DNA of 64,000 bases from Escherichia coli phage vB_EcoS_Ace: sequence record MT833283.1; one strand, written 5' to 3'. Position 1 is the stretch's first letter, and every line of letters starts with the position of its first letter. Shown piece by piece: positions 1,490-57,058 of the stretch. The notes under the pieces were generated by a model. The model saw only the letters and a program-made list of their open reading frames with translations, was not told the origin of the DNA and searched no databases. The translations under genes and the position numbers were made by a program.

Positions 1490-1690
1490 AATCTAGGTAG
1501 GACTTGAACCTACTATCACTTGTGCGGATTTACGAGAACCATTCTTTCACTCGAATCGAACGAGCTTCTACCCTCGGCAAGCTGGTGTCCCCTCTCCACC
1601 ACGCTAGAATGATAATTAATGCCTGCTCCTTTGAATCAAGAAGTCCACCCCGGACTTTGGGTCTTTGCAGTACATCACGCTGCTCTGATG
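1490..1690 (-). other. tRNA-like region with two T-arm-like elements, unresolved (tRNA pseudogenes or an atypical long tRNA-like RNA)
   Basis: T-arm-like GTAGG-TTCAAGT-CCTAC (plus 1497-1513) and GCTCG-TTCGATT-CGAGT (plus 1549-1565); candidate acceptor pairing 1490-1496 with 1604-1610 would give about 120 nt, too long for a standard tRNA. Confidence 0.3.
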
Positions 1691-1692
1691 TT

Positions 1693-1769
1693 TGGTACAC
1701 CCACTAGGACTTGAACCTAGAACCTACCGCTTAAGAGGCGGTAGCTCTAACCAATTGAGCTATGGATGT
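1693..1769 (-). tRNA. tRNA-Lys (CTT)
   Basis: Acceptor ACATCCA/TGGGTGT, D-arm GCTC/GAGC, anticodon stem ACCGC/GCGGT with loop CTCTTAA, T-arm CTAGG-TTCAAGT-CCTAG, CCA encoded. Confidence 0.8.
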
Positions 1770-1775
1770 ATAATT

Positions 1776-1850
1776 TGGCGGTACTAAGGGTAATCGAAAC
1801 CCTACCTCTCCCGTGACAGGGGAGTATCCTAACCGTTAGACTATAGTACC
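1776..1850 (-). tRNA. tRNA-Asp (GTC)
   Basis: Acceptor GGTACTA/TAGTACC perfect, anticodon stem CTCCC/GGGAG with loop CTGTCAC, T-arm AGGGT-TTCGATT-ACCCT, discriminator G then CCA encoded. Confidence 0.85.
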
Positions 1851-2371
1851 TTTAACTTTTTAAGTTCTTTAGGATTGCCTCCTAAAGAAGTGTATCTTTT
1901 ACGCAACCCATTATCTGAATAACTTAACTTTCTCCCTGCACCTGACCAGCCTAGCTCTCTTACTGTAACCTCGATTATTTCTTTAGTTATAGAGATATCT
2001 TTTGGTTTATGTGAAGAGCACTCCTGACATTTTTCAGCTTTTAAAGAAATAGCTTTACCACAATCCTTACAACAATTATCATGGTTTAGTTTACTAAATC
2101 CTTTATCTTTTAAAGTCTTTTCTAGATGCTGCTCTTTTGTGAGCACTTGTAAGTTATTAAGACCCCAATAAGTAATGTCTGTGTTAATATGGTCAACTTC
2201 TAGTTCAGAGTCTAGACTTGGTAATTTCTTAAATGCACATGCTAAAATCCTATGTACACCAGTATTTCTCTGTTGACCATTTTTATGGAGACGTATAGAT
2301 AAGTATCCGTAATTACTGGTTATTGGGGTTAGTATTTTGTTTGATTTGATACTAAATACTAACCCATCCAA
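1841..2371 (-). CDS. HNH homing endonuclease
   Basis: 176 aa; HNH core VHRILACAF...EVDHINTD...NNLQVL; C-terminal Cys-rich region; located within the tRNA island. Confidence 0.75.
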   Translation of the reverse strand: MDGLVFSIKSNKILTPITSNYGYLSIRLHKNGQQRNTGVHRILACAFKKLPSLDSELEVDHINTDITYWGLNNLQVLTKEQHLEKTLKDKGFSKLNHDNCCKDCGKAISLKAEKCQECSSHKPKDISITKEIIEVTVRELGWSGAGRKLSYSDNGLRKRYTSLGGNPKELKKLKVL

Positions 2372-2425
2372 ACTTACTAAGTACTTCTCAAACCCTGGAA
2401 TGGGTAAGGATATTCAGTGCATAAT

Positions 2426-2611
2426 TTACTCAGTTTTGAGTTTTTCGATAGCTTCCTCAACCTCTTTTAGAGCTTCACGACGCTCTACTTGACCTTGAAG
2501 TTCTTCAAGAAGTTCAGCTTTCAGAGCCTTAATAATATTACCACGAACCTTAATATTATTAATCAGATTATCACGATCAGCTTCTAGTCGAGCAATTGCA
2601 CGAGTTGTCAT
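2426..2611 (-). CDS. hypothetical small coiled-coil protein
   Basis: 61 aa ORF with RBS GAGGAAA upstream of the ATG on the minus strand. Confidence 0.5.
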   Translation of the reverse strand: MTTRAIARLEADRDNLINNIKVRGNIIKALKAELLEELQGQVERREALKEVEEAIEKLKTE

Positions 2612-2714
2612 ATCTATTTCCTCAGTTGTTAATGAAAAATGGTATCTGTGACTGAATTCGATATCAGCAATGATAGCTGGTTGGCTACCGGTTTACTTAA
2701 CTCTACACAGAATA

Positions 2715-2797
2715 TGGCGGGCCGTGTAGGATTCGAACCTACGTTGTCTTTCGACATGGATTAACAGTCCACCGCCAAACCGCTTGGCTAACGACCC
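2715..2797 (-). tRNA. tRNA, anticodon read as GTT (Asn) with an unusual 13-nt extra arm
   Basis: Acceptor GGGTCGT/ACGGCCC, D-arm GCCA/TGGC, anticodon stem GTGGA/TCCAT with loop CTGTTAA, extra arm GTC-GAAA-GAC, T-arm GTAGG-TTCGAAT-CCTAC, CCA encoded. Confidence 0.6.
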
Positions 2798-2804
2798 TAA
2801 AATT

Positions 2805-2880
2805 TGGACGACCGCATGAGATTCGAACTCACATAAGGAGGTTTTGCAGGCCTCCGCCTAAGCCATTCAGCCAACGGTCG
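2805..2880 (-). tRNA. tRNA, anticodon uncertain (apparent 9-nt anticodon loop CCTGCAAAA; GCA/Cys or TGC/Ala)
   Basis: Acceptor CGACCGT/GCGGTCG, T-arm GTGAG-TTCGAAT-CTCAT, CCA encoded; anticodon stem GGAGG/CCTCC encloses 9 nt. Confidence 0.55.
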
Positions 2881-3058
2881 ATTTATCTTGCTTTTCGAGA
2901 TTAGTAAACTCTAGATCTATAGAATGTCCTATAGATCTAGCATAATAGCCATCTCCAGCATCATAGCCTGACTTACCACACTCACACATCTTAAACTCTC
3001 TATAACGAGTGAAAATATGTTCAGAACCACAACACTTAAATTTAACTAACATTTTCAT
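2867..3058 (-). CDS. hypothetical small Cys-rich (zinc-ribbon-like) protein
   Basis: 63 aa ORF with CC...C.C pattern (KFKCCGSEH...CECGKSG); 3' end overlaps the tRNA 5' end by about 14 nt. Confidence 0.45.
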   Translation of the reverse strand: MKMLVKFKCCGSEHIFTRYREFKMCECGKSGYDAGDGYYARSIGHSIDLEFTNLEKQDKSTVG

Positions 3059-3297
3059 TTAACACGCTCCGGTAAATCTTCGAGTTTATATTGAGTAGCC
3101 ACATTAGCAGCATCTAGTAACAAACCCATATGTTTAAGAATCCTAGTGATAGCCTCGCCTTCTGCTTCTTCTACAAAAGTGCGTAGTTGAATGAAGTCAA
3201 TACCACCATCCATACCAGAGAAAATGTTAAGTAAGCGAAGCATTACCAGCTTACGTTCTTTCAGTTCTTGTTCTATCATGTTGCTTCTCCAGTTCAA
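3055..3297 (-). CDS. hypothetical protein
   Basis: 80 aa ORF, stop/start overlap with the downstream ORF; minus-strand promoter at about 3305-3350. Confidence 0.5.
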   Translation of the reverse strand: MNWRSNMIEQELKERKLVMLRLLNIFSGMDGGIDFIQLRTFVEEAEGEAITRILKHMGLLLDAANVATQYKLEDLPERVK

Positions 3298-3860: not shown

Positions 3861-4377
3861 CATTATATTCTTTTGCTTTCTCTAATTTTAGAAAAGACTT
3901 TAATTCTTCTAAGTTAATTATATTAAACCATTCACCTTCTAGTGCAAAAGGTTTAAGAAACTTATGTATTTTTGATTCTACCGCACGTCTATCGGAGTAG
4001 AATTGATAGTGCTCCAGAGTAAAATCTCTGTAAGGACTATATGTTTGATATGACCTCAGTCTTTCATGGACATTTACTGTCATACCTATTTTGTAACAAT
4101 TAGGCCATGCTTTATTGCCAATAACATATACCATACCTTCATACACAGGTAATTTATGCGCTTGTTTATACTGAATAAGATTTAAAGCAGAAATTCTATC
4201 ATACTGCATTATTCTTTTAGTATTCTTCTTTTCAGTACAAGTACCTTTTATCTCATTATAGATTTCTCGATATTTAGCAAGTAAATCTACATCAATAACA
4301 AAAGGTATAGTAGGAGAGATAATATCTCTTTCCTCCATAGCGCTAATTACTATTTTTGGTATATCTGGTATTGCCAT
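3847..4377 (-). CDS. GIY-YIG-like (T5orf172/MUG113-type) domain protein, paralog of 59-700
   Basis: 176 aa; shared core GMVYVIGNKAWPNCYKIGMTVNVHERLRSYQTYSPYRD with the 59-700 ORF. Confidence 0.7.
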   Translation of the reverse strand: MAIPDIPKIVISAMEERDIISPTIPFVIDVDLLAKYREIYNEIKGTCTEKKNTKRIMQYDRISALNLIQYKQAHKLPVYEGMVYVIGNKAWPNCYKIGMTVNVHERLRSYQTYSPYRDFTLEHYQFYSDRRAVESKIHKFLKPFALEGEWFNIINLEELKSFLKLEKAKEYNVLID

Positions 4378-5766: not shown

Positions 5767-5952
5767 TTAGCCTCGCTCAATATCAAAAGAAATTGCATAA
5801 TTAGGGTTAATGCCAGAACCTTTACAGGTAGGACATTCCCATTCGTTATAGAAAATGTCCCCAGGTTCAGCATCATTTTGAGTGCCAGAACCCCAACATT
5901 CAGTACACATACATTCTTCTAGCTCTTGAGCAATTTCTCGAAAGCGTGACAT
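5767..5952 (-). CDS. small zinc-finger-like protein
   Basis: 61 aa with CxxCxGSG...CPTCKGSG motifs; RBS AGGAGA upstream. Confidence 0.55.
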   Translation of the reverse strand: MSRFREIAQELEECMCTECWGSGTQNDAEPGDIFYNEWECPTCKGSGINPNYAISFDIERG

Positions 5953-5969
5953 ATAGTCTCCTAATTAAT

Positions 5970-6047
5970 TGGTGGCTCCCGGAGGATTCGAACCTACCTA
6001 CCTTTCGCTTATGAGGCGACGGCTCATACCAAATGAGCTTGAGAACC
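5970..6047 (-). tRNA. tRNA with CAT anticodon (second copy; Met or Ile2)
   Basis: Acceptor GGTTCTC/GGGAGCC, D-arm GCTC/GAGC, anticodon loop CTCATAA, T-loop TTCGAAT, CCA encoded. Confidence 0.7.
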
Positions 6048-6052
6048 AAATC

Positions 6053-6146
6053 TGGAGGAAGATGCCAGATTCGAACTGGCACACCGTGTTTCCACAGCTA
6101 CTGGCTGTTTAGCAAACAGCTCCCTTACCATTAGGGTTAATCTTCC
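6053..6146 (-). tRNA. tRNA-Ser (GCT), type II
   Basis: Acceptor GGAAGAT/ATCTTCC perfect, anticodon stem GCTGT/ACAGC with loop TTGCTAA, long variable arm, T-arm GCCAG-TTCGAAT-CTGGC, CCA encoded; 94 nt. Confidence 0.8.
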
Positions 6147-6197
6147 GAATTTATGAATATATTATACAGAAAATTTCGACATTAAGCAAGTGAAATT

Positions 6198-6494
6198 TTA
6201 CTGAACCTTGCACTGATATACTTGTTTGATACGTGTCACTGACTTCTTAGTTGGATTGATAGAAGAACCCTGCCACCAACGTGATTCTGAGCTGAGAACA
6301 GTACCAGGAACAGCTTGTTCTTTTGGCAGAACAATATCAAAACACTGTTCACCCATATTATCTTTAATGTGCGACCAAATGTCTAGAGTAAATCGTTCTA
6401 GCTTATTACAAACTTGAACTTGACAAAGTTCCTGTTGTGGAGCAGCAAATACAGAAGTAGATACTAGAGTCAATGCAAGTACAATGCGTTTCAT
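6198..6494 (-). CDS. secreted protein with signal peptide
   Basis: Start at ATG 6494 (MKRIVLALTLVSTSVFA) preceded by the T5-type leader TTTGAGAGAGGAATCAAAT and a promoter at about 6515-6570. Confidence 0.65.
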   Translation of the reverse strand: MKRIVLALTLVSTSVFAAPQQELCQVQVCNKLERFTLDIWSHIKDNMGEQCFDIVLPKEQAVPGTVLSSESRWWQGSSINPTKKSVTRIKQVYQCKVQ

Positions 6495-6600
6495 ATTTGA
6501 TTCCTCTCTCAAATTTATAAATATATTATACAGAAATTTTCTATATTAAGCAAGTGAAAATTTCTGTATAATAGCCCTCGCTTAGAGGGCTATAGCTACT

Positions 6601-7293
6601 TTATTTGTTAACGCGTACAAAGTATCCTTTATATGCCCCAAGAATAGAGTTACCTAAAAATACTAGCCACATTGCTAGGATTGCATAAGATGCACCTGTA
6701 GATTGAGCAGTTACAAGCCAAATGTATACAGTACCAATGTTAATAGCAATCCAGATCAGCCACTGCTCGGCATACTGCTTAACCATAAGCCACATAGCGA
6801 TCACACTACCTACCGCAGTAAATGCATCCAACATTGGGAATGGATCAGCCGTAGTAGTTAAGAAACTACCATACCCTAACGTGGCTACTGCTAGAATCCC
6901 TAGAGTCAGCAGAGCTTGGACTTTAGTCAGAATCTTAGTTGGAACATCTGGCAGATTACTTGGCTTATTTTTATGCCATAAGTACATTCCATAAAACTGC
7001 ATAGGAACGTAGTATAGCAGGTTTAGTGCAGCGTTACCATAAAGATCTTCGTTTAAAGCTGTAATACCATAGGTAAGAACACCAACTAAGCCCCAAATAT
7101 AGTTAGAAACACGTCCTTTAGCAACCAAAATAACACAAACTACGTTGGTTATCGCAGTAGCCCAATCTAGAGGTGTACCATTATAGTTAGCTAAACTAAT
7201 GAAGGCAACCGCTATGAACAGCCACAGATATTCCAGAGGTTTCCAGTTTTTAAAGTCATTTACGAGATAGTTAGTCATATTAAAACTCTCCAA
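6601..7293 (-). CDS. pnuC: nicotinamide riboside transporter PnuC
   Basis: 230 aa multi-pass membrane protein; segments PMLDAF and VIAMWLMVKQYAEQWLIWIAINI match PnuC family signatures as I recall them from E. coli PnuC. Confidence 0.8.
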   Translation of the reverse strand: MESFNMTNYLVNDFKNWKPLEYLWLFIAVAFISLANYNGTPLDWATAITNVVCVILVAKGRVSNYIWGLVGVLTYGITALNEDLYGNAALNLLYYVPMQFYGMYLWHKNKPSNLPDVPTKILTKVQALLTLGILAVATLGYGSFLTTTADPFPMLDAFTAVGSVIAMWLMVKQYAEQWLIWIAINIGTVYIWLVTAQSTGASYAILAMWLVFLGNSILGAYKGYFVRVNK

Positions 7294-7903
7294 CGTTAAA
7301 GTGATGAATCAGCCAGTCTACTGCGTTTACTGCTTCGTCCATACGAACTTTGTAGTCCGGGGAGTCGATGTACACAGTACGCCCTTCAGGGAACTGATTT
7401 GGAAATTCTTTCTTCATCTGCTCGAACAGTTCAGAAGTAATTGAACGATCGGAGTTAATACGTAAACCATCATCTACCCACTTGACAGTGGGCGCTAGAA
7501 CAATTACTAAATCGTAATGTTCTTCTTTTGCAATTGCTGTAACCACAGGGTTCTTACGATGTTCATAAAGTCTGTGGTAGAACTCAGTAATAAAAGCATT
7601 TGTATCCACAAACATGATCTTATTTGCAGTACGTTCTGCCTCAAACTCTAGCTCTTTGTGTCTGAACGCAATTTTACTATAATCTTCGCTGGTAAGCAGA
7701 TTTTCGTTACCAACTAGATCAACTTCACAATACGTTCGACCATATTCTTCTACCCACGAAGTGTTGTATAGCTTCGCAAGGTATTTTGTTAAAGTAGTCT
7801 TTCCTGAGCTTTCAGTCCCAATGATTACAACCCTACGCACGTAATCTTTACGAACTACGCTAGGAAGAAACTCCCAATACTTCATAAGATCATTACGAAT
7901 CAT
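7280..7903 (-). CDS. nadR: NadR-like ribosylnicotinamide kinase domain (downstream part of a nadR-like gene interrupted by an in-frame TAG)
   Basis: Walker A IIGTESSGKTTL; translation of the same frame upstream back to the TAG at 8114-8116 gives ...RVPISATMIRNDL (nucleotidyltransferase ISxTxIR motif) with no further stop. Confidence 0.75.
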   Translation of the reverse strand: MIRNDLMKYWEFLPSVVRKDYVRRVVIIGTESSGKTTLTKYLAKLYNTSWVEEYGRTYCEVDLVGNENLLTSEDYSKIAFRHKELEFEAERTANKIMFVDTNAFITEFYHRLYEHRKNPVVTAIAKEEHYDLVIVLAPTVKWVDDGLRINSDRSITSELFEQMKKEFPNQFPEGRTVYIDSPDYKVRMDEAVNAVDWLIHHFNVGEF

Positions 7904-8113
7904 TGTAGCTGAGATTGGAACACGAGTCCGATCAGAATCTACAATATAATGACCAAACTTCGGCAGATATTTCTTATATTCTGCATCATAGTCTAGTTCG
8001 CTAGAGAAAATGGTGATCTCAGGTAAATGTCCGTAATTTTCATTAAGGATTCTAGCATATTCCGGCCAACCATTCGGATATTCAGGAATATCATCTTCAA
8101 TAATATACTCTAC

Positions 8114-8335
8114 CTAAACGTGCTCAATATCCGCGTAAGTTTGTTCTAACCAACGAAGACGATTCTTTAACTGTAATACTTCCTGATCACGTGTGTTCTG
8201 CTTATCCAGCCAACGATTATCATGACTAACTACAATAATAACTCGTTCACACATAGTTGCTGCTGTATTTATTAGGTTAATATGGCCACGCGTTAAGGGT
8301 GCGAACTTACCAATTACTAGACCAGTCTTAATCAT
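8114..8335 (-). CDS. nadR: NadR-like NMN adenylyltransferase N-terminal fragment, ending at in-frame TAG
   Basis: MIKTGLVIGKFAPLTRGHINL carries the (H/T)xGH nucleotidyltransferase motif; same frame as 7280-7903; start ATG 8335 has RBS AGAGAGG and a T5-type promoter. Confidence 0.7.
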   Translation of the reverse strand: MIKTGLVIGKFAPLTRGHINLINTAATMCERVIIVVSHDNRWLDKQNTRDQEVLQLKNRLRWLEQTYADIEHV

Positions 8336-8365
8336 GTTTGATTCCTCTCTCAAATTTATAAATAT

Positions 8366-8394
8366 ATTATACAGAGAATTTAGCATTCAAGCAA
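8366..8394 (-). promoter_or_regulatory. sigma70-type T5 early promoter (-35 TTGCTT, 17-nt spacer, -10 TATAAT) for nadR
   Basis: rc of 8366-8394 gives TTGCTT-N17-TATAAT followed by leader AAATTTGAGAGAGG. Confidence 0.7.
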
Positions 8395-8547
8395 ACGAAT
8401 TTTTAAACTTTTTAGTGGAAAAATCTCAGGGCATTTAATGGTAGCACGTTGTTGCAGCAACAATAGTATGCGATTCTAAAGAATTAAATACTAAAGACCT
8501 TAGTTGAATAACTTATGGGCTTTTCTTTTGCCTTAAATACAGAAAAG

Positions 8548-8578
8548 CCCGCGCTCTCGGAGGGAACGCGGGCTTGGT
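8548..8578 (-). terminator. rho-independent terminator downstream of the SPFH gene
   Basis: Inverted repeat GCCCGCG...CGCGGGC followed by a T-run on the minus strand. Confidence 0.6.
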
Positions 8579-8598
8579 TCGAAGATTACGTGTAACTA

Positions 8599-9543
8599 TT
8601 ACTTGTTACGCATATCCATGATCATTTGACCATCGTAGCCAGTACCAACAACAGTCTGCGGTACACCACCTTGGTATTTTTCAGCACGAAGCATTTCAAC
8701 TTCCAGCTGCTTCCAACGAATCATTTCAGGAGTAATGGTACGTTGCAGCGCGGCGTTAGCTTCAGCTTCTTTCTTAGCTGCGTACAGTTTAGCATCTGCG
8801 TCACGTTCGTTAGCTACTGCCATGTTTTCACGAGCAGAACGATCAGCTTCAGCTTGCTTAACTTTCTGCTGTGCTTCTTGTTCAACACGAGCCAATTCAG
8901 CTTTTGCAGCGTTAACTTGTTCTTCACGAACTTTAGTGTTCTGTACCTGTTCCATGATTACCGGTGGCAGAGTAATATCCTGAAGGAATACTTGCTTAAC
9001 CGTGTAACCATAAGGACGCGCGTACTCTTCTACCTCTTGCTGAATAGCAGTTTGCAGTTGAGCCTGAATCTTAGCGTCGAACAGATCTTGTGCTTTTGGT
9101 ACGGACTTACCAAACTCACGAATCGTAGACAGCATCTTCTCTTCAACGTACTTGTTCAGAGCTTGATCCTGAGTACCTGCGTTAACACGGTTCATAGGAG
9201 CTTTAGCACCATCAAACTGCAACATAACGGTAATGTCAACAGTAGACTTAAACTTATCCTGGCTAGGAACCTGAAGTTTATCCAGTTTCATGGAAATATC
9301 TTTCGTACTAAAAGTATCAAAAGAAGCAAATGGGTTAACAATATGGAAGCCTGGCAGTACAGGGTTCGGGCTAACTTTACCCAGGAAGGTCTGAGTCTTT
9401 ACAGTACCATCCTGAACAACTGTGTAGGAATTGAGAGCCAGAATAAGAGCACCAAGACCAACTACAGCACCAACACCCCAACGTTTAATAGTACGAATTA
9501 CTTTTTGCTCAGAAGTCAGTTCTTTAGTGTTTTTAGTAAACAT
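8599..9543 (-). CDS. SPFH/band-7 (stomatin/prohibitin/HflK-like) membrane protein
   Basis: 314 aa; N-terminal TM helix (WGVGAVVGLGALILAL), SPFH-like core, long charged coiled-coil C-terminus (EQVNAAKAELARVEQEAQQK...). Confidence 0.65.
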   Translation of the reverse strand: MFTKNTKELTSEQKVIRTIKRWGVGAVVGLGALILALNSYTVVQDGTVKTQTFLGKVSPNPVLPGFHIVNPFASFDTFSTKDISMKLDKLQVPSQDKFKSTVDITVMLQFDGAKAPMNRVNAGTQDQALNKYVEEKMLSTIREFGKSVPKAQDLFDAKIQAQLQTAIQQEVEEYARPYGYTVKQVFLQDITLPPVIMEQVQNTKVREEQVNAAKAELARVEQEAQQKVKQAEADRSARENMAVANERDADAKLYAAKKEAEANAALQRTITPEMIRWKQLEVEMLRAEKYQGGVPQTVVGTGYDGQMIMDMRNK

Positions 9544-9554
9544 ATATTTCCTTA

Positions 9555-9755
9555 TTATTTAGAAGAGTTAGCTACTACAGTTACTTTAGTTGCAGAAATA
9601 AACAGGCCAGCATCCACAGCAAATTCAGGAGCTTTGATATCTCCATTATGAAATATGACTATACCGGAGATTACCTCAAATGCTAGTGCTGTAACATCGG
9701 TGGTATTTACTTGTGAATGTTCACCTACTACTTTTACTATATATCGTGTTTTCAT
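9555..9755 (-). CDS. hypothetical protein
   Basis: 66 aa ORF immediately downstream of the SPFH gene. Confidence 0.45.
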   Translation of the reverse strand: MKTRYIVKVVGEHSQVNTTDVTALAFEVISGIVIFHNGDIKAPEFAVDAGLFISATKVTVVANSSK

Positions 9756-9781
9756 TTTATTTTCCTAACAGTTAATAAAAT

Positions 9782-9856
9782 TGGCCGAGGTGACAGGATT
9801 TGAACCTGCATAAAGGAATTTAGAAGACTCCTGCCTATCCCTTAGACTACACCCCG
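9782..9856 (-). tRNA. tRNA-Arg (TCT)
   Basis: Acceptor CGGGGTG/CACCTCG, anticodon stem GGAGT/ATTCC with loop CTTCTAA, T-arm GCAGG-TTCAAAT-CCTGT, CCA encoded. Confidence 0.75.
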
Positions 9857-9864
9857 AAAGTTAA

Positions 9865-10374
9865 TCATTTAATGACTTTATTCAATTTAGTTTGACTTTC
9901 AACAGCTTCTTTAGCAGATTTCTCAGCATTTTTAGCTGCACGTTGTGCTTTAGAGTCAATCAATAGCTTGTCATACTTGATATTAACGAACTCTTTAATA
10001 TCGTGGTAGAAACGTTGATGTGCCATGTATTCTTGTGCATCTGCGTCATAACAGCGCATATAGAAGTAATCACTAGGCTCTCCGCGAAGTGTACTCTCTA
10101 GAATCTGCGGGCGATAACGACGTAATGTATCTTTCGCCATTTTTACTTCATCAGTTTCTTCACCAAGCTGAACTAGGTGATAAAGACGAGTATTGTCGAT
10201 GTAATCCAAAGCTACGCTAAAGTATTCACCTTCTCGAAGATTATATCCTGTAATCTCACTCATTTTCTCGCGAGCTTGATCAAGTGTCAATCGTTCAGAG
10301 AAATGTGCTATATGCAGAATACGAGGGCAACACATTTCTTGAAGATCAAAGATACAAGTTGTTCCTAGATTCAT
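9865..10374 (-). CDS. hypothetical protein
   Basis: 169 aa ORF; RBS AAGGA upstream; lies at the 3' end of the ORF-free transcribed block. Confidence 0.55.
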   Translation of the reverse strand: MNLGTTCIFDLQEMCCPRILHIAHFSERLTLDQAREKMSEITGYNLREGEYFSVALDYIDNTRLYHLVQLGEETDEVKMAKDTLRRYRPQILESTLRGEPSDYFYMRCYDADAQEYMAHQRFYHDIKEFVNIKYDKLLIDSKAQRAAKNAEKSAKEAVESQTKLNKVIK

Positions 10375-27063: not shown

Positions 27064-27282
27064 ATGGCAAAAGTACCACAAGAATTTACGGATGGAATTA
27101 AGGCAGATCTAGATGTAATGCTAATGGCCCAATGGGAGTCTGGCTTCCGAGATGGAATTGATTGTTGTGTGGCCGTGCTCGATACTATTAGTTGGCAGCT
27201 TATTCAATCTGGAAATGATGCAGAAGGCAACCTTCTAGCTAACCTTTCTAAACAAATTAGGGAAATGAAATGCGCAGATTAA
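27064..27282 (+). CDS. hypothetical protein
   Basis: Start at ATG 27064 (MAKVPQEF) with RBS GAGAGGAGAAAA; the upstream ATG at 27034 lies inside the promoter. Confidence 0.5.
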   Translation: MAKVPQEFTDGIKADLDVMLMAQWESGFRDGIDCCVAVLDTISWQLIQSGNDAEGNLLANLSKQIREMKCAD

Positions 27283-28112
27283 TTATTGTTAGTGGTGCAG
27301 GTTTGAGTGTAGATAGTGGTGTTCGTGCTTTCCGTACTGATACTGCTAGTGGGAAATCCTTGTGGGATGAGTACGATCTAGAGGAAGTATGTAGCTTGCC
27401 TAACTTTGAAGCTGGCTTCCGTCGCTTCTGTGGTGAAGATGATCCTAACTACTTCAGTGCTCGTTTCCCTGGCATTGATGAAGATGGTAACGATCTGTAT
27501 CTCAAGACTCATGAGTTCTACAACATGCGTCGTCAGGAATTACAGACTGTTGAGCCTAACATTGCCCATCTGCGAATTGCAGAATGGTTCCAGCGTTATG
27601 ATGCGGATAGCGTGAAGAACTTCACTACTAACGTTGATGACCTTCTGGAACGTGCTGGTATCCCTCGTGATGAAATCATTCACGCTCACGGGTACTTGAA
27701 AGAGGTGATCTATCGTCAGGGTCGCAATCAAATCATCGAAGATGTTGGGTATACTGCGATTGCCCCTGAAGATTACGAATGGGTAAAACCAAACGTAACA
27801 TTCTTTGGTGAGACGGCTCCGTGGTATATGGGTCAGATTAACCTGTTTGATACGCTTACTAGCAATGATATGGTTATTGTGGTAGGTTGTAGCAACCAAG
27901 TGATTGACTTCAACTGGGAACTATTCCCTGCTGTATGTCGTGGAACTAAGATGATGGTTGTTAACCCTCAAGTTCGCTATGATGAACAGCTTGAATATGA
28001 GAAACGTGGTGTTACTGTATGGCGGGCTGGAGCTGCCGAAGTTTTTGGTAACAAGCATTTCATTGGTCAAGTAGAAGCCTTTATGGAAGGAACTATTTAT
28101 GTCGCATCCTAA
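27270..28112 (+). CDS. Sir2-family (sirtuin-like) NAD-dependent protein, no obvious Zn-ribbon
   Basis: 280 aa; Sir2 motifs GAGLSVDSGVRAFR, TTNVDDLLERAG, HAHG, PNVTFFGE, IVVGCS. Confidence 0.7.
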   Translation: MRRLIIVSGAGLSVDSGVRAFRTDTASGKSLWDEYDLEEVCSLPNFEAGFRRFCGEDDPNYFSARFPGIDEDGNDLYLKTHEFYNMRRQELQTVEPNIAHLRIAEWFQRYDADSVKNFTTNVDDLLERAGIPRDEIIHAHGYLKEVIYRQGRNQIIEDVGYTAIAPEDYEWVKPNVTFFGETAPWYMGQINLFDTLTSNDMVIVVGCSNQVIDFNWELFPAVCRGTKMMVVNPQVRYDEQLEYEKRGVTVWRAGAAEVFGNKHFIGQVEAFMEGTIYVAS

Positions 28113-28991: not shown

Positions 28992-29420
28992 ATGTTCGAT
29001 AATCTTTTCATGAAAGAGGTAAACCCTATGCTCCTCAACTTCTGGCGTTCTCTCCCTAATGGTATGTATAATGAAACCATCAATCTGCTTAAGATTTGGT
29101 GTGAGAATAACGATATCTTCCTATCCTTTAAAGGCCCACTAGAGGAAGCTCCATGTATTGGAGTTAGCGTGGATTTAGGTGAGGGAGTAGAAGAAATTGT
29201 AGACTGGAAAGAACTCGATGAAATGGGTCTGGTTTTTGCCTTGAACCATAAGCTGTTTATGCCTGCAAATCACCGTCTTATTGTAAACTATCGCACTGGT
29301 GAAGCTCCTGCTTTCCAGGTAAATGAACGTGAGGGCTGGTCATATTCGCCCAAAGAAGTAAATGAGGGGATTCAGAAACTTCGTCGTTTCGGGTATATGA
29401 TCCCAGGTTTAACTGCTTAA
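28992..29420 (+). CDS. hypothetical protein, tandem paralog A
   Basis: 142 aa; shares ELDEMGLVFALN...YRTGEAP...RRFGYMIPGL pattern with the next ORF. Confidence 0.5.
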   Translation: MFDNLFMKEVNPMLLNFWRSLPNGMYNETINLLKIWCENNDIFLSFKGPLEEAPCIGVSVDLGEGVEEIVDWKELDEMGLVFALNHKLFMPANHRLIVNYRTGEAPAFQVNEREGWSYSPKEVNEGIQKLRRFGYMIPGLTA

Positions 29421-29429
29421 GGAGGCAGA

Positions 29430-29825
29430 ATGGAACAAGTATTTTGGCGTCAGATAGATCCTAGTTTGGTAGAGCGTGCTGAAGGGCTCCTTGCACGTTG
29501 GTTGGGGGTTGACAAGGTTAGTGTAACATTTCCGTTTACTTCTGTAACAGACCCTAGTGTAGGTGTCTTTGTGGACGAAGATGAAGATGATGGTTGGGAA
29601 GCTGACTGGAATGAATTGTCCAGTATGGGCTTGATTGTTGCCCTCAACTTCTCTATATTCCATCCACGTGGCTTAGCCATTACACGTGACCCCGAAACTG
29701 GTGAATCCCCTTATCTTTTGCAAGTAGAAGATGATATTTGGGAGTACACCGAAGATATTCTCGAAGAAGCTAAAGGTCAATTAAATCGCATTGGGATCTA
29801 TGTTCCAGGCCTAAATGATGATTGA
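29430..29825 (+). CDS. hypothetical protein, tandem paralog B
   Basis: 131 aa; ELSSMGLIVALN...PETGESP...NRIGIYVPGL parallels the previous ORF. Confidence 0.5.
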   Translation: MEQVFWRQIDPSLVERAEGLLARWLGVDKVSVTFPFTSVTDPSVGVFVDEDEDDGWEADWNELSSMGLIVALNFSIFHPRGLAITRDPETGESPYLLQVEDDIWEYTEDILEEAKGQLNRIGIYVPGLNDD

Positions 29826-33454: not shown

Positions 33455-33482
33455 TGCTTTTAGGAAAATTTTTCTGTATAAT
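33455..33482 (+). promoter_or_regulatory. T5 P-N25-like early promoter with conserved leader and RBS
   Basis: TTATTTGCTTTTAGGAAAATTTTTCTGTATAATAGATTCATAAATTTGAGAGAGGAG matches the classic T5 N25 promoter-leader from memory. Confidence 0.8.
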
Positions 33483-33513
33483 AGATTCATAAATTTGAGA
33501 GAGGAGTTTAAAT

Positions 33514-35751: not shown

Positions 35752-35970
35752 TTGATGAGAGGATCAATTATGGCAATGACAATAACACTTCCAAAGATTC
35801 AAGCAAAACTTAATTTGCTTTCCATAGCAAAGATCAATTATCAGGACAATATTGGCACTCCAAACCAGAAAGCGTACAAAGATGCGTGGTTAAAAGAAGC
35901 TGCTGATTTAGCTGGTATGGCTGCTCAGTATAATAAAGAACTCAAAATGGAAATCGCAGACGATGAATAA
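35752..35970 (+). CDS. hypothetical protein
   Basis: 72 aa ORF after a T5-type promoter/leader (35710-35765). Confidence 0.45.
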   Translation: MMRGSIMAMTITLPKIQAKLNLLSIAKINYQDNIGTPNQKAYKDAWLKEAADLAGMAAQYNKELKMEIADDE

Positions 35971-36934
35971 TGTAAAAGACTTTATCAAACGTTGTCAAGA
36001 AGCGTACTACCAGGGAATGAGTCTTATTTCCGATGAAGAATATGATCGTCTGATTAAAAGATTCCCACTAGAGGAAGAAATCGGACCGAAAGGTGATATT
36101 CCTCACTTGTATCGTATGTATTCTTTGCAGAAAGTCTATTACGGTCGTGGTGATAAAGCTCCATTCAATCCATTAGGTCAGGTTGAAACTGATAAGTTAG
36201 ATGGCTGTGCAATTTCTCTGTTATATATTAATGGTGAATTTGTTCAAGCGTTAACTCGTGGTAACGGTATTCTAGGGAATGATGTAACGCATAATGTTAA
36301 AATGCTAAACATCCCCAAAACTATTTCCCAAAAAGTACCAACTCAAATCACTGGTGAAGTTCTCATTACTAAAGAAGTAGAGAACAAACGTAACTACGCT
36401 TCGGGTGCTATTAACCTGAAAGACAGCGATGATTTCATGCAACGTATTGGTGAAGGTGGTTTAATCTTCGTTGCATATGGTATCCAGTGTTCAGCGGAAA
36501 CAGTCGGTATTACAGAAGCCTATTTAAAAGATATGCTTTGGCTAGAGAATGAGAACTTCTTGACAGTTGTTAATGTTCGTTCCTTCTTTAAGTGGATTCC
36601 GACGGATGGTAAAGTTGTTCGTATTAATGATAACAACAAATTCTTCCGTGAAGGTTGGACTAATAAATTTCCTCGCGGTGCATTTGCTATTAAAGAGGAT
36701 GAAGAAGGCGAAATTACCACACTTGTTAAAGTTGAATGGCAAGTAGGGGCTTCTGGTAAAGTAACTCCAGTTGGTTATTTCGAGCCGGTGATTATTGATG
36801 ATGCCACAATCGTTAAAGCAACTCTTAATAACGTTGATTATATTAACGCTCTCGATTTAGAGATCGGTTGCCAGATTCGAGTGATTCGTGCTGGTGGTGT
36901 AATCCCTTGTATAGTAGAGCGAGTATACGACTAA
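35963..36934 (+). CDS. ligA: NAD-dependent DNA ligase, adenylation/OB part (subunit A of a split ligase)
   Basis: 323 aa; KxDG adenylation motif (TDKLDGCAISLLY), TRGNG motif. Confidence 0.8.
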   Translation: MNNVKDFIKRCQEAYYQGMSLISDEEYDRLIKRFPLEEEIGPKGDIPHLYRMYSLQKVYYGRGDKAPFNPLGQVETDKLDGCAISLLYINGEFVQALTRGNGILGNDVTHNVKMLNIPKTISQKVPTQITGEVLITKEVENKRNYASGAINLKDSDDFMQRIGEGGLIFVAYGIQCSAETVGITEAYLKDMLWLENENFLTVVNVRSFFKWIPTDGKVVRINDNNKFFREGWTNKFPRGAFAIKEDEEGEITTLVKVEWQVGASGKVTPVGYFEPVIIDDATIVKATLNNVDYINALDLEIGCQIRVIRAGGVIPCIVERVYD

Positions 36935-37136
36935 TTCGTAACCCTTTGCTACCCGTTTACCATGTCGGAATTATAAAGTGGTTATTGACATTTTCGCCGC
37001 TTAGGTATATACTATTATCATTCAGTTGAGGGATAGAAAGTTATGGCGAGGGTAAGCAAAGTTAGTTAAAATTGTAGTTGCTAAATGCTTAAATACTTGC
37101 TATAATATTTATATAAATTGATAAGGAAGAAATTTG

Positions 37137-37916
37137 ATGAAAATCGAAATTCCAACACAATGTCCCTCTTGTGGTTCTAAGCTAGATCTTGTCAACGGGC
37201 AATTATTCTGTAGGAATAAGTCCAACTGTCCAGCGCAATCAAGTAAGTTAATCGAGAACTTCTGCACAAAAATGAAGTTAAAGGGCTTTGGCCCGAAAAC
37301 TATTGAGAAGCTGGAGCTGACTAAGATCTCAGAACTGTTTTACCTGACCGAAGAAGATTTGGTAGGAGCTGTGGGTAGCAAGGTTGCCGCTAAGTTGATT
37401 AGCGAGTTAAATACTAAGGTTCGCGGAGACATTGACTTTGGTTCAGTTCTCGGTTCTTTAGGAATTCCTCTTATTGGAGAGGTTGCAGCAAAGAAACTGT
37501 CCCAAAATTGCACTAGCTTCCACGATGTGAAGGCTGACGGCAAGGCTGGAGAAAATTACAAAACCTGGCTAAATTCCCCACAAGGCAAGGATGTTATTGA
37601 ACTACCGTGGAAATTCTCAACTGGTATTCGAGGTGCTAAAGCTGATATCATCATTACAGATGATTTAGTTGCCCAGCCAAATGGAATCACGGTCTGTATT
37701 ACCGGATCTTTGCAAGACTTTGCAAATCGAACGGATGCAACAAACTATTTAGAAAGTCTAGGATATACGGTCAAGAAGTCCGTTACCAAAGACGTCAAAT
37801 ACCTAATCTGTGAGGATGAATCAAAACGTTCTTCCTCATCTTATAAGAAAGCCGAAACGAATGGGATAGAAATCCTGTCGATTAAAGAACTATTGGAGAA
37901 AAATAATAATGTCTAA
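37137..37916 (+). CDS. ligB: NAD-dependent DNA ligase, Zn-finger/HhH/BRCT part (subunit B)
   Basis: CPSCGSKLD...CRNKSNCPAQ zinc finger, HhH-like GFGPKTIEKL, C-terminal BRCT-like region; ATG 37137 with RBS AAGGAAG. Confidence 0.75.
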   Translation: MKIEIPTQCPSCGSKLDLVNGQLFCRNKSNCPAQSSKLIENFCTKMKLKGFGPKTIEKLELTKISELFYLTEEDLVGAVGSKVAAKLISELNTKVRGDIDFGSVLGSLGIPLIGEVAAKKLSQNCTSFHDVKADGKAGENYKTWLNSPQGKDVIELPWKFSTGIRGAKADIIITDDLVAQPNGITVCITGSLQDFANRTDATNYLESLGYTVKKSVTKDVKYLICEDESKRSSSSYKKAETNGIEILSIKELLEKNNNV

Positions 37917-38676
37917 ACTGAACTGGAACGTAGAAGGTGTAACCGAGTCTCTGAAAGCAAAAGCCACTGCTCTGGGTGTTGCTGTAATCTCTCAAGAACA
38001 AGTAGCTGCTATCGCTGCTGAACTGGCTACCGAGACTGGCAAAGACGTTACCGCTCGCTCTGTTGGCTCTAAGCTGCGTAAAGAAGGTTTCGAAGTACAG
38101 AAAGCTAACGAAGTACAGAAATCCCCGTGGACTCCTGAGCAGGAAGCTGAACTAGTTGATTTCCTGAACGCTCATGCTGGTCAGTATACTTACGCTGAAA
38201 TCGCTGCTGCTGTAGCTGGTGGTCAGTTCGGTGCTAAGCAGGTACAGGGTAAGATCCTGAGTCTGGAAATGACCGCTTCTGTTAAGCCAACTGAAAAAGC
38301 TGCTGCTGTTCGTTCCTTCACTCCTGACGAAGAAACTGATTTCGTTAATCAGGTTGTTGCTGGTGCTACTATTGAAGCTATCGCTGCTCACTTCGGTCGC
38401 AATATTAAGCAGATTCGTGGTAAAGCTCTGAGCCTGCTTCGTGAAGGTCGTATCGCTGCTATGCCGGTACAGGAAACTTCAAGTGCTAAAACTCGTGAAG
38501 ATCTGTTAGAAGGTCTGGATCTGGCTAACATGACTGTTGCTGAGATCGCTGAGAAAACTGGTAAGTCTGAGCGCGGTGTTAAATCTATGCTGTCTCGTCG
38601 TGGTCTGGTTGCTAAGGACTATGATGGTGCCGCTAAGCGTGCTAAACTGGATGCAAAAGCTGCGGCTGCTGAATAA
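37909..38676 (+). CDS. Ala-rich protein with repeated HTH-like motifs (abundant early protein candidate)
   Basis: 255 aa; three or four repeats of the pattern AEIAxxxGxxxxxVxxKxLSL; codon usage enriched in ctg/ggt/cgt/gct unlike neighbours. Confidence 0.55.
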   Translation: MSKLNWNVEGVTESLKAKATALGVAVISQEQVAAIAAELATETGKDVTARSVGSKLRKEGFEVQKANEVQKSPWTPEQEAELVDFLNAHAGQYTYAEIAAAVAGGQFGAKQVQGKILSLEMTASVKPTEKAAAVRSFTPDEETDFVNQVVAGATIEAIAAHFGRNIKQIRGKALSLLREGRIAAMPVQETSSAKTREDLLEGLDLANMTVAEIAEKTGKSERGVKSMLSRRGLVAKDYDGAAKRAKLDAKAAAAE

Positions 38677-38692
38677 TCTGGTAAATTAAACC

Positions 38693-38728
38693 TAAGGGGA
38701 GGGGGCTATGCTCCTTCCCCTTTTTGCA
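38693..38728 (+). terminator. rho-independent terminator
   Basis: Hairpin AAGGGGAGG...CCTTCCCCTT followed by TTTTTG. Confidence 0.6.
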
Positions 38729-38758
38729 TTTAGAAGGCACGAAAGCGTGCAAAGGAGA

Positions 38759-53526: not shown

Positions 53527-53573
53527 TTTATTACCTTTATAGGGGCTTTCATAAGCCCCCTATTATACTTTTT

Positions 53574-56636: not shown

Positions 56637-57058
56637 TATTGAGTTACTCCATCGCTGATGTATACTTTACCTTCCATAATACGGAAAGAACTGACTTCAG
56701 AGCCAATTACATCACGAGTCATTAGGATATCATAATAACCAGCAAAACGTTGTCTTGGGTTATACTTATCACGTTCTTTAGATGCTTTTTCACCAATATT
56801 AGTAACGTCTGCAACGGAAAGACTAATTGCAGCAGCACCTTGAGCAGCATCAATAACACGAGTTTTAAAGTTAGCTAGAACCTCGGCGTTCTCATCTAAA
56901 CTAGATTTAATAGTTCCTCGGAGTGAATACCCCGTCAAGTTAACAGGAACTTCTGTTGGTGGATATACACTATCATCAACATCCATAAATTGCATGATAA
57001 GACCATAAGGTACTTTTTCATCAACAACAATATCAATAACTCGGTTTTCTGTACTCAT
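56636..57058 (-). CDS. tail collar protein (T5 p132-like), tentative
   Basis: 140 aa ORF between the pb4-like and fibre genes; assignment by size and synteny with T5 only. Confidence 0.45.

What the first reader, a model, noticed from the sequence alone, without database searches (positions are those of the whole stretch)
6601..8386. Phage-borne NAD+ salvage pair (PnuC transporter plus NadR-like NMNAT/kinase)
A PnuC-like nicotinamide riboside transporter sits directly upstream of, and overlaps, a NadR-like bifunctional enzyme gene, each with a T5-type early promoter nearby. Together they would let infected cells import nicotinamide riboside and rebuild NAD+. That is a plausible counter to NAD+-depleting abortive-infection immunity, or support for the phage's own NAD-consuming enzymes (NAD-dependent ligase at 35963-37916, Sir2-like protein at 27270-28112).
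Basis: partly seen in the sequence, partly recalled or inferred. Interest (0 to 1): 0.55.

Follow-up and report, generated by a model that had tools for sequence, protein, structure and literature searches.

The report
Known phage NAD+ salvage operon, broken
This is a copy of the published phage NARP3 system (a nicotinamide riboside importer plus an enzyme that turns the riboside into NAD+ to beat NAD-depleting bacterial immunity), but in this phage the enzyme gene carries a premature stop codon and is probably inactive.

Summary
On the minus strand, one T5 early promoter drives a NadR-like NMNAT/RNK frame (8335-7280). A PnuC gene (7278-6601) follows after a 1-nt spacer, then a hairpin. The pair is orthologous to Bas30_86/Bas30_87 of phage TrudiRoth, at 98.9% and 96.9% protein identity. 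That pair was shown in August 2026 to be "NARP3", which imports nicotinamide riboside, converts it to NAD+ and defeats Sir2-HerA and DSR1 defence. The idea is therefore already known.

All six relatives I aligned have Ser (TCG or TCA) there. The stop falls before most NMN/NAD-binding residues and before the whole kinase domain. It is very unlikely to be an assembly error. It is the only mid-gene stop found in a confidently conserved gene among 80 TrudiRoth genes matched here. The same DNA recurs in at least five public sequencing runs. [quoted passage not shown] I found no suppressor tRNA and no TAG recoding.

Verdict: a known system, here most likely a recent natural knockout of its enzyme. 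Interest is low, apart from its use as a ready-made native-context mutant.

The parts
8366..8394 (-). Sigma-70 T5 early promoter of the operon. The -35 element TTGCTT is at 8394-8389, the spacer is 17 nt, and the -10 element TATAAT is at 8371-8366. The conserved leader ATATTTATAAATTTGAGAGAGGAAT follows, with its Shine-Dalgarno sequence at about 8347-8343.
   Evidence: Read directly from the sequence. It differs at 3 of 71 positions from the promoter annotated as P15a in T5 NC_005859. The 31-nt core occurs twice exactly in the window and once with 3 mismatches, against 0 expected in shuffles. The simple consensus scan missed it because TTGCTT matches only 3 of 6 positions of TTGACA.
8114..8335 (-). 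NadR-like gene, codons 1-73 plus the premature TAG. This N-terminal part of the NMNAT domain carries GKFAPLTRGH (residues 9-18), K10, F11 and S37.
   Evidence: Pfam CTP_transf_like at 4.7e-7. The exact 73-aa product is GenBank QNR52318.1 of phage vB_EcoS_Ace. Motifs were located.
8114..8116 (-). Amber codon TAG at codon 74. Relatives have TCG or TCA (Ser), so this is a single C-to-A change on the coding strand.
   Evidence: The allele is private to this phage among the 6 aligned relatives. No exact match to a 29- or 40-nt pattern spanning the TAG was found in IMG/VR, JGI metagenomes or GTDB genomes. No 28-mer match was found in the phage collection. Identical DNA occurs in Logan contigs L013 and L014.
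7280..8113 (-). Remainder of the NadR-like frame, codons 75-351 plus TAA. It holds the rest of the NMNAT domain (E80, P84, Y86, G89, W90, Y93, F110, S112, D115, ISATMIR 141-147) and the whole RNK domain (Walker A 173-180, E230, D275). It is in frame with the N-terminal piece but is untranslated unless the stop is read through or translation restarts.
   Evidence: AAA_28 at 7.7e-32. With Ser restored at codon 74, the frame is 98.9% identical to PDB 9X6F/9X6H, Bas30_86. The first in-frame ATG/GTG/TTG is M145 at 7903, with no Shine-Dalgarno sequence. GenBank annotates a 274-aa CDS starting at the ATT of codon 78.
6601..7278 (-). Intact pnuC gene of 225 codons encoding a nicotinamide riboside transporter. 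GGAG lies 9 nt upstream of the ATG, and the ATG lies 1 nt after the NadR stop codon.
   Evidence: PF04973 at 6.1e-43 and TIGR01528 at 2e-34. Match to PDB 4QTN at 1.8e-32. The protein is 96.9% identical to Bas30_87 and keeps N45, Q94 and N180. It is identical to QNR52227.1.
6571..6593 (-). Hairpin at the 3' end of the operon, with a 9-bp stem (ATAGCCCTC / GAGGGCTAT) and a 5-nt loop. It is a probable terminator or RNA-stabilising element.
   Evidence: Folding energy -17.1 kcal/mol, z-score -4.5. The stem is conserved in TrudiRoth. It has no clean T tract, so the terminator scan did not call it.

Best explanation
[quoted passage not shown] In intact form, a strong sigma-70 early promoter (T5 P15a type) transcribes nadR-like and pnuC soon after infection. 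PnuC imports nicotinamide riboside (NR). The HTH-less NadR-like enzyme phosphorylates NR to NMN in its RNK domain and adenylates NMN to NAD+ in its NMNAT domain. This refills the pool emptied by Sir2-HerA and DSR1-type NADases. These steps were shown for the 97-99% identical TrudiRoth proteins and are inferred here by orthology.

In this genome a single C-to-A change turned Ser74 (TCG) into TAG. Translation should stop after 73 residues. That is before most NMN/NAD+ contacts and before the whole kinase domain. The phage therefore most likely makes no functional enzyme and is a recent natural NARP3 knockout. PnuC remains intact, but on its own it is expected to be useless for rescue. Its expression may also be lowered by polarity; this last point is inference.
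For: Orthology:
- The NadR-like frame matches PDB 9X6F/9X6H (Bas30_86) at E = 3.9e-240. Four substitutions plus the stop separate it from Bas30_86.
- PnuC differs from Bas30_87 at 7 of 225 residues and keeps N45, Q94 and N180.
- Gene order and the flanking genes (SPFH-domain gene, small secreted-protein gene, tRNA-Ser/Met) match TrudiRoth.

Function of the intact system, from PMC13464706:
- Both genes are needed. Co-expression rescues T7 and lambda by 10^3- to 10^4-fold against Sir2-HerA and restores NAD+.
- NR transport and the NR-to-NMN-to-NAD+ chemistry were demonstrated.
- Mutants at the NMNAT site and at the RNK site both lose function.

The stop codon is real:
- TAG lies in frame at codon 74.
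- It is one of only three codon changes private to this phage in the gene; the other two are synonymous.
- Of 85 TrudiRoth CDS queried, 80 found a match in the window. None showed a frameshift, and no other confidently conserved gene has a mid-gene stop.
- Logan contigs from ERR7888529 (contig seen in 4 samples) and ERR7888521 are 100% identical to the window across the TAG.
- GenBank proteins QNR52318.1 (73 aa) and QNR52216.1 (274 aa) of vB_EcoS_Ace show the depositors saw the same split.

The stop is not bypassed in any way I could detect:
- There is no CUA-anticodon tRNA among the 14 tRNAs in the window or the 27 tRNAs of a relative.
- TAG ends 4 of 61 conserved genes and occurs in frame nowhere else.
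- The next in-frame ATG/GTG/TTG is 210 nt downstream and has no Shine-Dalgarno sequence.

The mutation is recent: against Bas30_86 there are 22 synonymous and 4 missense codon differences, and no decay is seen after the stop.
Against: - No expression or activity data exist for this phage.
- The rest of its genome (about 49 kb, including more of the tRNA cluster) is outside the window, so a phage-borne suppressor is not strictly excluded.
- The downstream 277 codons are perfectly preserved. That fits a very recent mutation but also fits continued use.
- Low-level UAG readthrough, or a restart at the ATT of codon 78 (preceded by AGGT), could give some product.
- The five runs carrying the allele probably come from one laboratory stock, so they show the base is real but not that it is common in nature. 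The link between those runs and project PRJEB49704 was not verified.
- The NARP3 paper itself never tested the system in a native phage.
Confidence: 0.75

Rival explanations
1. The system still works as a full NARP3. The UAG is decoded by a host amber suppressor, by a phage tRNA outside the window, or by near-cognate readthrough. Enough full-length enzyme carrying a substitution at residue 74 is then made.
For: The downstream frame is intact, with every catalytic residue kept. Residue 74 is not among the residues that the NARP3 paper lists as ligand contacts or mutated, and it aligns with Phe in H. influenzae NadR, so a substitution there would probably be tolerated. The T5 record notes that many T5 tRNAs become amber suppressors after an anticodon change. 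Only part of the tRNA cluster lies in the window.
Against: No CUA-anticodon tRNA was found in the window or in a relative's full cluster. TAG is a normal terminator in this genome. The propagation host, E. coli O157:H7 CECT 5947, is not reported to be a suppressor strain. From general knowledge, uninduced readthrough in E. coli is typically well below 1%.
Confidence: 0.08
2. A half-system remains useful. Translation restarts just after the stop, for example at the ATT of codon 78, or at M145. The product has an intact RNK domain but no NMNAT activity. PnuC plus this kinase traps NR as NMN, and host enzymes (NadR, or PncC followed by NadD and NadE) finish NAD+ synthesis.
For: The RNK domain (residues 167-351) is untouched. 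AGGT lies 7 nt before the ATT of codon 78, and GenBank annotates that 274-aa CDS. It is established knowledge for Salmonella and Haemophilus that NadR kinase activity drives PnuC-dependent NR uptake.
Against: ATT is a very weak start codon, and M145 has no Shine-Dalgarno sequence. In the NARP3 study, NMNAT-site mutants of Bas30_86 failed to restore NAD+ or phage growth in E. coli that still had its own NadR. The authors also state that host NadR cannot compensate.
Confidence: 0.1
3. The stop codon is a sequencing or assembly artefact and the gene is intact in the real phage.
For: Only one base differs from the sense codon. Some deposited relatives do show error-like gene splits, for example Salmonella phage INF11, where nadR, pnuC and neighbouring genes are fragmented.
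Against: The change is a substitution, not a homopolymer indel. The window shows no frameshifts across 80 matched genes. The identical sequence was assembled independently from at least five other runs and is present in the GenBank annotation.
Confidence: 0.03

Closest known systems
NARP3 (Bas30_86/Bas30_87) of Escherichia phage TrudiRoth; Yan et al., Sci Adv 2026, PMC13464706; PDB 9X6H and 9X6F
   Same: Both have the same two genes in the same order, with the same 1-nt junction, the same promoter and leader, the same 3' hairpin stem and the same neighbours. Protein identity is 98.9% for the enzyme frame and 96.9% for the transporter. All residues the paper reports as functional are conserved, except K168, which is Arg here.
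   Different: Codon 74 of the enzyme gene is TAG here, so the ORF is broken. There are four missense differences in NadR (V34I, I73V, K168R, S260R) and seven in PnuC. The loop of the 3' hairpin is inverted.
Bacterial NadR plus PnuC nicotinamide riboside salvage (H. influenzae NadR PDB 1LW7, E. coli NadR 8X7F, L. lactis NadR family 6GYE, N. mucosa PnuC 4QTN)
   Same: The NMNAT and RNK two-domain architecture and the motifs match (GxFxPxxxGH, ISxTxxR, Walker A). The E-values are 4.8e-55 to 1lw7, 9.2e-52 to 8x7f, 1.6e-43 to 6gye and 1.8e-32 to 4qtn.
   Different: The phage enzyme has no N-terminal HTH repressor domain, since its alignment to PRK08099 starts at profile position 65. In the phage the two genes are fused into one early operon, whereas in E. 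coli they lie at separate loci.
NARP1 (Adps plus Namat) and NARP2 (Nampt plus NMNAT-Nudix, as in KVP40 NadV/NatV); Osterman et al. 2024
   Same: They share the purpose: phage-encoded rebuilding of NAD+ to escape NADase-based defence.
   Different: The substrates and enzymes differ. NARP1 uses ADPR plus nicotinamide. NARP2 uses nicotinamide plus PRPP. NARP3 needs external NR and a transporter.
The same genomic slot in phage T5 (NC_005859), genes T5.076-T5.079 behind promoter P15a
   Same: The flanks are the same (tRNA-Ser(GCU)/tRNA cluster on one side, the SPFH 'lipoprotein' T5.080 on the other). The promoter is nearly identical, with 3 mismatches in 71 nt.
   Different: T5 carries different cargo there, a Toprim-like ORF plus three ORFs on the opposite strand. 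It has no nadR or pnuC in the 27-42 kb region examined.

Membership tests
NARP3 (phage NadR-like + PnuC operon) | A nadR-like gene lies immediately upstream of a pnuC-like gene on the same strand in a phage genome, and the two are co-transcribed. | tested here: met
   NadR TAA is at 7282-7280 and PnuC ATG at 7278. There is one promoter upstream and a hairpin downstream. The arrangement is the same as bas30_0086/0087.
NARP3 (phage NadR-like + PnuC operon) | An intact ORF encodes a single polypeptide with both NMNAT (residues 1-166) and RNK (residues 167-351) domains. | tested here: not met
   An in-frame TAG at codon 74 (8116-8114) breaks the ORF. Relatives have TCG or TCA there. GenBank annotates two CDS.
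NARP3 (phage NadR-like + PnuC operon) | Conservation of the residues shown by mutagenesis to be required: K10, F11, S37, E80, P84, G89, F110, S112, D115, V139, I141, E230 and D275 in the enzyme, and N45, Q94 and N180 in the transporter. | tested here: met
   All are present in the conceptual translation. Everything from E80 onward lies after the stop.
NARP3 (phage NadR-like + PnuC operon) | NR import, conversion of NR to NMN to NAD+, and rescue of phage from Sir2-HerA or DSR1. | not testable with these tools
   Shown only for the TrudiRoth proteins expressed from plasmids. It has never been tested in a native phage.
NadR family (bifunctional NMNAT / ribosylnicotinamide kinase) | Nucleotidyltransferase motifs (GxFxPxxxGH and ISxTxxR), a P-loop kinase domain, and a profile match. 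| tested here: met
   GKFAPLTRGH at 9-18, ISATMIR at 141-147 and GTESSGKT at 173-180. PRK08099 scores 254 bits against a cutoff of 201. TIGR01526 scores 273 bits, below its cutoff of 341. PDB 1LW7 matches at 4.8e-55. This applies to the conceptual read-through protein only.
NadR family (trifunctional regulator form) | [quoted passage not shown] | tested here: not met
   The alignment to the 411-position PRK08099 profile starts at position 65, and the protein starts directly at the NMNAT domain. The same is reported for Bas30_86.
PnuC nicotinamide riboside transporters | Profile match above the curated cutoffs, a multi-helix membrane protein, and similarity to the solved PnuC structure. | tested here: met
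   PF04973 scores 147.2 bits against a cutoff of 27.3. TIGR01528 scores 119.2 against 42.45. 4QTN aligns over residues 9-215 at 1.8e-32. A crude hydropathy scan found six or seven hydrophobic stretches, two of which overlap.
T5 early sigma-70 promoters | Sequence match to an annotated T5 promoter: an A-rich upstream region, TTGCTT, a 17-nt spacer, TATAAT, and the conserved ATAAATTTGAGAGAGGA leader. | tested here: met
   The promoter differs at 3 of 71 positions from T5 'promoter P15a', and it aligns with P15b, P15c, P14a and P14b. Promoter activity was not measured here.

The most novel reading that the evidence does not exclude
The amber allele may not be a dead end. One possibility is that the phage keeps a working split or half NARP3, in which PnuC plus a restart product with kinase activity only traps NR as NMN for the host to finish. 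The other is that the enzyme is made conditionally by UAG suppression. Either would be a new operating mode for a phage NAD+ reconstitution pathway. In both cases Ace is a natural, suppressible nonsense mutant. It allows the native-phage test of NARP3 that the published study says it could not perform.
Probability: 0.1. Interest if true: 0.4.

Novelty: already known. Interest (0 to 1): 0.18.

Why it matters
The NadR/PnuC operon was flagged as a candidate pathway in 2024 and characterised as NARP3 in August 2026, including crystal structures of a 98.9% identical enzyme.

What this window adds is small but practical. A biocontrol phage used against E. coli O157:H7 carries a nonsense mutation in the NARP3 enzyme gene. 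That predicts the phage is sensitive to NAD+-depleting defences such as Sir2-HerA and DSR1, and possibly other NADase-based systems, which its close relatives should escape when NR is available. This bears on host range and on how resistance could arise during biocontrol use. The phage also offers a natural near-isogenic mutant, repairable by one base or by a suppressor host, for testing NARP3 in a native infection. Finally, it illustrates that such accessory counter-defence genes can be lost without preventing propagation on a laboratory host.

Tried and rejected
- Suppressor tRNA. ARAGORN found 14 tRNAs in the window and 27 in the full cluster of relative vaffelhjerte. None has a CUA anticodon.
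- Genome-wide TAG recoding. This is rejected: TAG terminates 4 of 61 conserved genes, and the only in-frame TAG is in nadR. The 351-residue gene call on Logan contig L013, which spans the TAG, must therefore be a read-through by that pipeline's gene caller.
- Assembly error. This is rejected on three grounds: the gene-integrity screen against TrudiRoth, the identical independent contigs and the GenBank split annotation.
- Search for the amber allele elsewhere. There was no exact match in IMG/VR, JGI metagenomes or GTDB genomes. No 28-mer match was found in the 50,697-record phage collection. The best full-length matches to the 81-nt query there have 2 mismatches. I did not inspect each of the roughly 180 records individually.
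- Exact-protein look-ups of the 207-aa (M145) ORF found nothing. For the 73-aa fragment, the gene-position index had no record, but the cluster look-up found it as GenBank QNR52318.1.
- Riboswitch or other structured RNA in the 260-nt leader region. An Rfam E-value search of 5900-9900 returned only tRNAs.
- Own promoter for pnuC. The only consensus hit near it (7208-7180) lies inside the pnuC coding sequence, so it cannot drive the gene.
- The consensus promoter and terminator scan is uninformative here. It found 7 promoter-like sites against 7.7 expected, and it missed the real T5 promoters and the 3' hairpin.
- Literature search for the ERR run numbers found nothing. The original description of phage Ace is not in the paper library.
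- Structure prediction and large homology searches were not run, because a crystal structure of a 98.9% identical protein exists.
Full report
**What is in the sequence**

The window is part of a T5-like phage (Demerecviridae, Markadamsvirinae). The 2.1 kb around the finding matches about 200 Epseptimavirus genomes over at least 80% of its length, at up to 97.8% identity. A 25-kb stretch gives the same picture.

The following features lie on the minus strand, in order.
- An intrinsic terminator of the upstream SPFH/band-7 gene at 8575-8545.
- A promoter with TTGCTT at 8394-8389, a 17-nt spacer and TATAAT at 8371-8366, followed by the leader ATATTTATAAATTTGAGAGAGGAAT.
- A NadR-like reading frame from the ATG at 8335 to the TAA at 7282-7280.
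- One base of spacer, then a 225-codon PnuC gene from the ATG at 7278 to the TAA at 6603-6601.
- A 9-bp-stem hairpin at 6593-6571, with a folding energy of -17.1 kcal/mol and a z-score of -4.5.
- A second copy of the same promoter, which serves the next gene.

**Family assignment**

PnuC matches Pfam PF04973 at 147 bits against a cutoff of 27.3. It matches NCBIfam TIGR01528 at 119 bits against a cutoff of 42.45. It also matches the solved N. mucosa PnuC structure 4QTN at 1.8e-32.

The NadR-like frame matches CTP_transf_like at its N-terminus and AAA_28 at 7.7e-32 in its C-terminal half. It matches NCBIfam PRK08099 (NadR) at 254 bits against a cutoff of 201. That alignment begins at profile position 65, so the frame has no HTH domain. 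It carries GKFAPLTRGH at residues 9-18, ISATMIR at 141-147 and the Walker A motif GTESSGKT at 173-180.

The NadR-like frame is not open. Codon 74 is TAG, at window 8116-8114.
- All six relatives I aligned have Ser there (five TCG, one TCA), and all have an uninterrupted 351-codon gene.
- The change is one of only three codon differences private to this phage in the gene. The other two are synonymous.
- The stop lies after K10, F11 and S37. It lies before E80, P84, Y86, G89, W90, Y93, F110, S112, D115, V139, I141 and the ISATMIR motif, and before the whole kinase domain.
- The next in-frame ATG/GTG/TTG is M145, 210 nt downstream, and it has no Shine-Dalgarno sequence.

- The end coordinate 8386 belongs to a mechanical ORF that reads through the promoter and leader.
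- The gene overlap exists only if the TTG at 7293 is taken as the PnuC start. The real start is the ATG at 7278, which has a GGAG Shine-Dalgarno sequence and is the start used in every annotated relative.
- One promoter serves the pair. There is not one promoter per gene.

**Is the stop codon real?**

I tested assembly quality by running 85 annotated TrudiRoth proteins against the window with tblastn. Eighty found a match, and none showed a frameshift. The only mid-gene stop in a confidently conserved gene is the one in nadR. The other two stops flagged are a TGA at codon 3 of a homing endonuclease and one in a poorly conserved 56-aa hypothetical ORF.

Exact patterns of 29 or 40 nt spanning the TAG are absent from IMG/VR, JGI metagenomes and GTDB genomes. 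No 28-mer containing the variant exists in the phage collection.

An exact-protein look-up of this PnuC allele found Logan contigs from run ERR7888529 (a contig seen in four samples) and from ERR7888521. Both contigs are 100% identical to the window from 8366 or 8238 down to 6505, including the TAG. The ends at 8366 and 6505 fall inside the repeated promoter sequence, which is probably why the assemblies break there.

A cluster look-up then identified the source.
- The PnuC protein is QNR52227.1.
- The 73-aa fragment is QNR52318.1.
- A 274-aa CDS beginning MIEDDIPEY, with the ATT of codon 78 taken as its start, is QNR52216.1.

The depositors therefore already saw the gene as split. Ace is a biocontrol phage specific for O157:H7. 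It is propagated on E. coli O157:H7 CECT 5947 and was later spiked into faecal fermentations that were shotgun sequenced under PRJEB49704 (PMC9512901). That study is the likely origin of the Logan runs, though I could not verify the link between the runs and the project. The base is therefore real in this phage stock. It is not shown to be common in nature.

**Can the stop be bypassed?**

No tRNA with a CUA anticodon is present among the 14 tRNAs in the window. None is present among the 27 tRNAs of the complete cluster in relative vaffelhjerte. TAG is used as a genuine terminator by 4 of 61 conserved genes and occurs in frame nowhere else, so there is no recoding. Rfam finds only tRNAs in 5900-9900. 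Part of the tRNA cluster of Ace lies outside the window, so a private suppressor is not strictly excluded.

**What it is and how it works**

With Ser restored at codon 74, the NadR-like frame is 98.9% identical to PDB 9X6F/9X6H. That protein is Bas30_86 of phage TrudiRoth. PnuC is 96.9% identical to Bas30_87 and keeps N45, Q94 and N180.

Yan et al. (Sci Adv, August 2026, PMC13464706) named this pair NARP3 and reported the following.
- Bas30_87 is a trimeric NR transporter.
- Bas30_86 converts NR to NMN and then to NAD+.
- Neither gene alone rescues phage. Together they restore NAD+ and raise T7 and lambda plating by 10^3- to 10^4-fold against Sir2-HerA, and they also counter DSR1.
- Mutations in either the NMNAT site or the RNK site abolish the effect.
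- Rescue depends on external NR, with an EC50 of about 4-6 uM.
- The system could not be tested in its native phage.

Osterman et al. had pointed to the NadR/PnuC operon in BASEL phages as a likely third pathway in 2024. Phage NadR had been catalogued in 2022.

Mechanism for the intact operon: early transcription from a strong sigma-70 promoter, NR import, two ATP-dependent steps to NAD+, and refilling of the pool emptied by NADase effectors. These steps are shown for the ortholog and inferred here.

For this genome my best-supported reading is a recent loss-of-function allele of the enzyme, at confidence about 0.75. The mutation looks recent because the frame after the stop shows no decay. 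Against Bas30_86 there are 22 synonymous and 4 missense codon differences.

**Rivals**

- Readthrough or suppression giving full-length enzyme: about 0.08.
- A kinase-only restart product that, with PnuC, traps NR as NMN for host enzymes to finish: about 0.10. The NARP3 data argue against this, since NMNAT-site mutants failed even though the host's own NadR was present.
- A sequencing artefact: about 0.03.

**Promoter and cassette context**

The operon's promoter differs at only 3 of 71 positions from the promoter annotated as P15a in phage T5. In T5 itself the same slot, between the tRNA-Ser(GCU) cluster and the SPFH 'lipoprotein' T5.080, holds T5.076-T5.079 instead of nadR-pnuC. The slot thus carries different cargo in different members of the subfamily, which fits an accessory counter-defence role.

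NadR homologs at 90% identity or more occur in about 200 phage records, mostly Salmonella and Escherichia Epseptimavirus. More distant homologs occur in Vibrio (including ICP1), Klebsiella, Aeromonas, Enterococcus and jumbo phages.

**Side claims**

The SIR2-family ORF at 27270-28112 and the two-part NAD-dependent ligase (adenylation and OB domains at 35963-36934, HhH and BRCT domains at 37134-37916) are confirmed. Both are annotated the same way in TrudiRoth. Whether NARP3 feeds them is untested.

**Verdict**

The system is already known. The only new element is a private, real nonsense mutation that probably inactivates it in this biocontrol phage. Interest is low (0.18).

Noticed in passing
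window 6571-6593 (minus strand) compared with L009 (TrudiRoth) around 4245-4267: The stem of the hairpin after pnuC is identical in the two phages. The 5-nt loop is the reverse complement (TAAGC here, GCTTA in TrudiRoth), so the loop has been inverted while the stem was preserved.
   Followed up: partly
window 8332-8404, 6491-6563, 6127-6199 (minus strand) and 33477-33507 (plus strand): The same T5 early promoter plus leader (TTGCTT, 17 nt, TATAAT, ATAAATTTGAGAGAGGA) heads successive small transcription units. The exact 31-nt copies flanking nadR-pnuC are direct repeats. They could mediate loss or exchange of the cassette, and they are where the short-read Logan contigs end.
   Followed up: partly
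L016 (T5 NC_005859) 37279-39671, compared with window 6601-8404: T5 has the near-identical promoter P15a at the equivalent slot but different cargo: T5.076, a Toprim-like 'DNA primase' ORF, plus T5.077-T5.079 on the other strand. It has no nadR or pnuC there. The slot is a variable cargo site in Markadamsvirinae.
   Followed up: partly
L013 (Logan ERR7888529_4927) 32-1087: The public gene call on this contig is a 351-residue product that spans the in-frame TAG, so that pipeline read through the stop. Such calls can hide nonsense alleles in large protein catalogues.
   Followed up: partly
window 6146-6198, compared with L001, L002 and L003 at 619-1128: Relatives mar003J3, vaffelhjerte and YZU-L1 carry a 510-nt HNH homing endonuclease gene (F-TflVI-like) between tRNA-Ser and the small secreted-protein gene. 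This window and TrudiRoth lack it.
   Followed up: no
window 2414-2416 (minus strand): The ortholog of homing endonuclease bas30_0109 has TGA at codon 3 of the TrudiRoth annotation. Either the start lies further downstream or the gene is inactivated.
   Followed up: no
window about 53000-56640 (minus strand): The lateral tail fibre ortholog (bas30_0022) matches over only 51% of its length, at about 58% identity and in several pieces. The neighbouring tail genes are about 98-99.5% identical. This divergent receptor-binding protein fits Ace's reported O157:H7 specificity.
   Followed up: no
window 28992-29417 and 29430-29822 (plus strand): Two adjacent small ORFs, orthologs of bas30_0050 and bas30_0049, are 31% identical to each other, so they are a tandem paralog pair of unknown function.
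   Followed up: no
window 35963-36934 and 37134-37916 (plus strand): The NAD-dependent DNA ligase is encoded as two separate ORFs about 200 nt apart (adenylation and OB domains; HhH and BRCT domains). TrudiRoth annotates the same split as subunits A and B.
   Followed up: partly
whole window, compared with the literature: PMC9512901 places phage Ace in the genus Tequintavirus. The window's closest relatives by DNA and protein identity are Epseptimavirus members such as TrudiRoth, mar003J3 and the Salmonella S1xx phages. The record is absent from the copy of the phage collection searched here.
   Followed up: partly
L010 (Salmonella phage INF11, PV692321.1) 1501-3232: In this relative nadR, pnuC and the upstream SPFH gene are all annotated in fragments. 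This looks like indel sequencing error rather than biology, so split NARP3 genes in databases need checking one by one.
   Followed up: no
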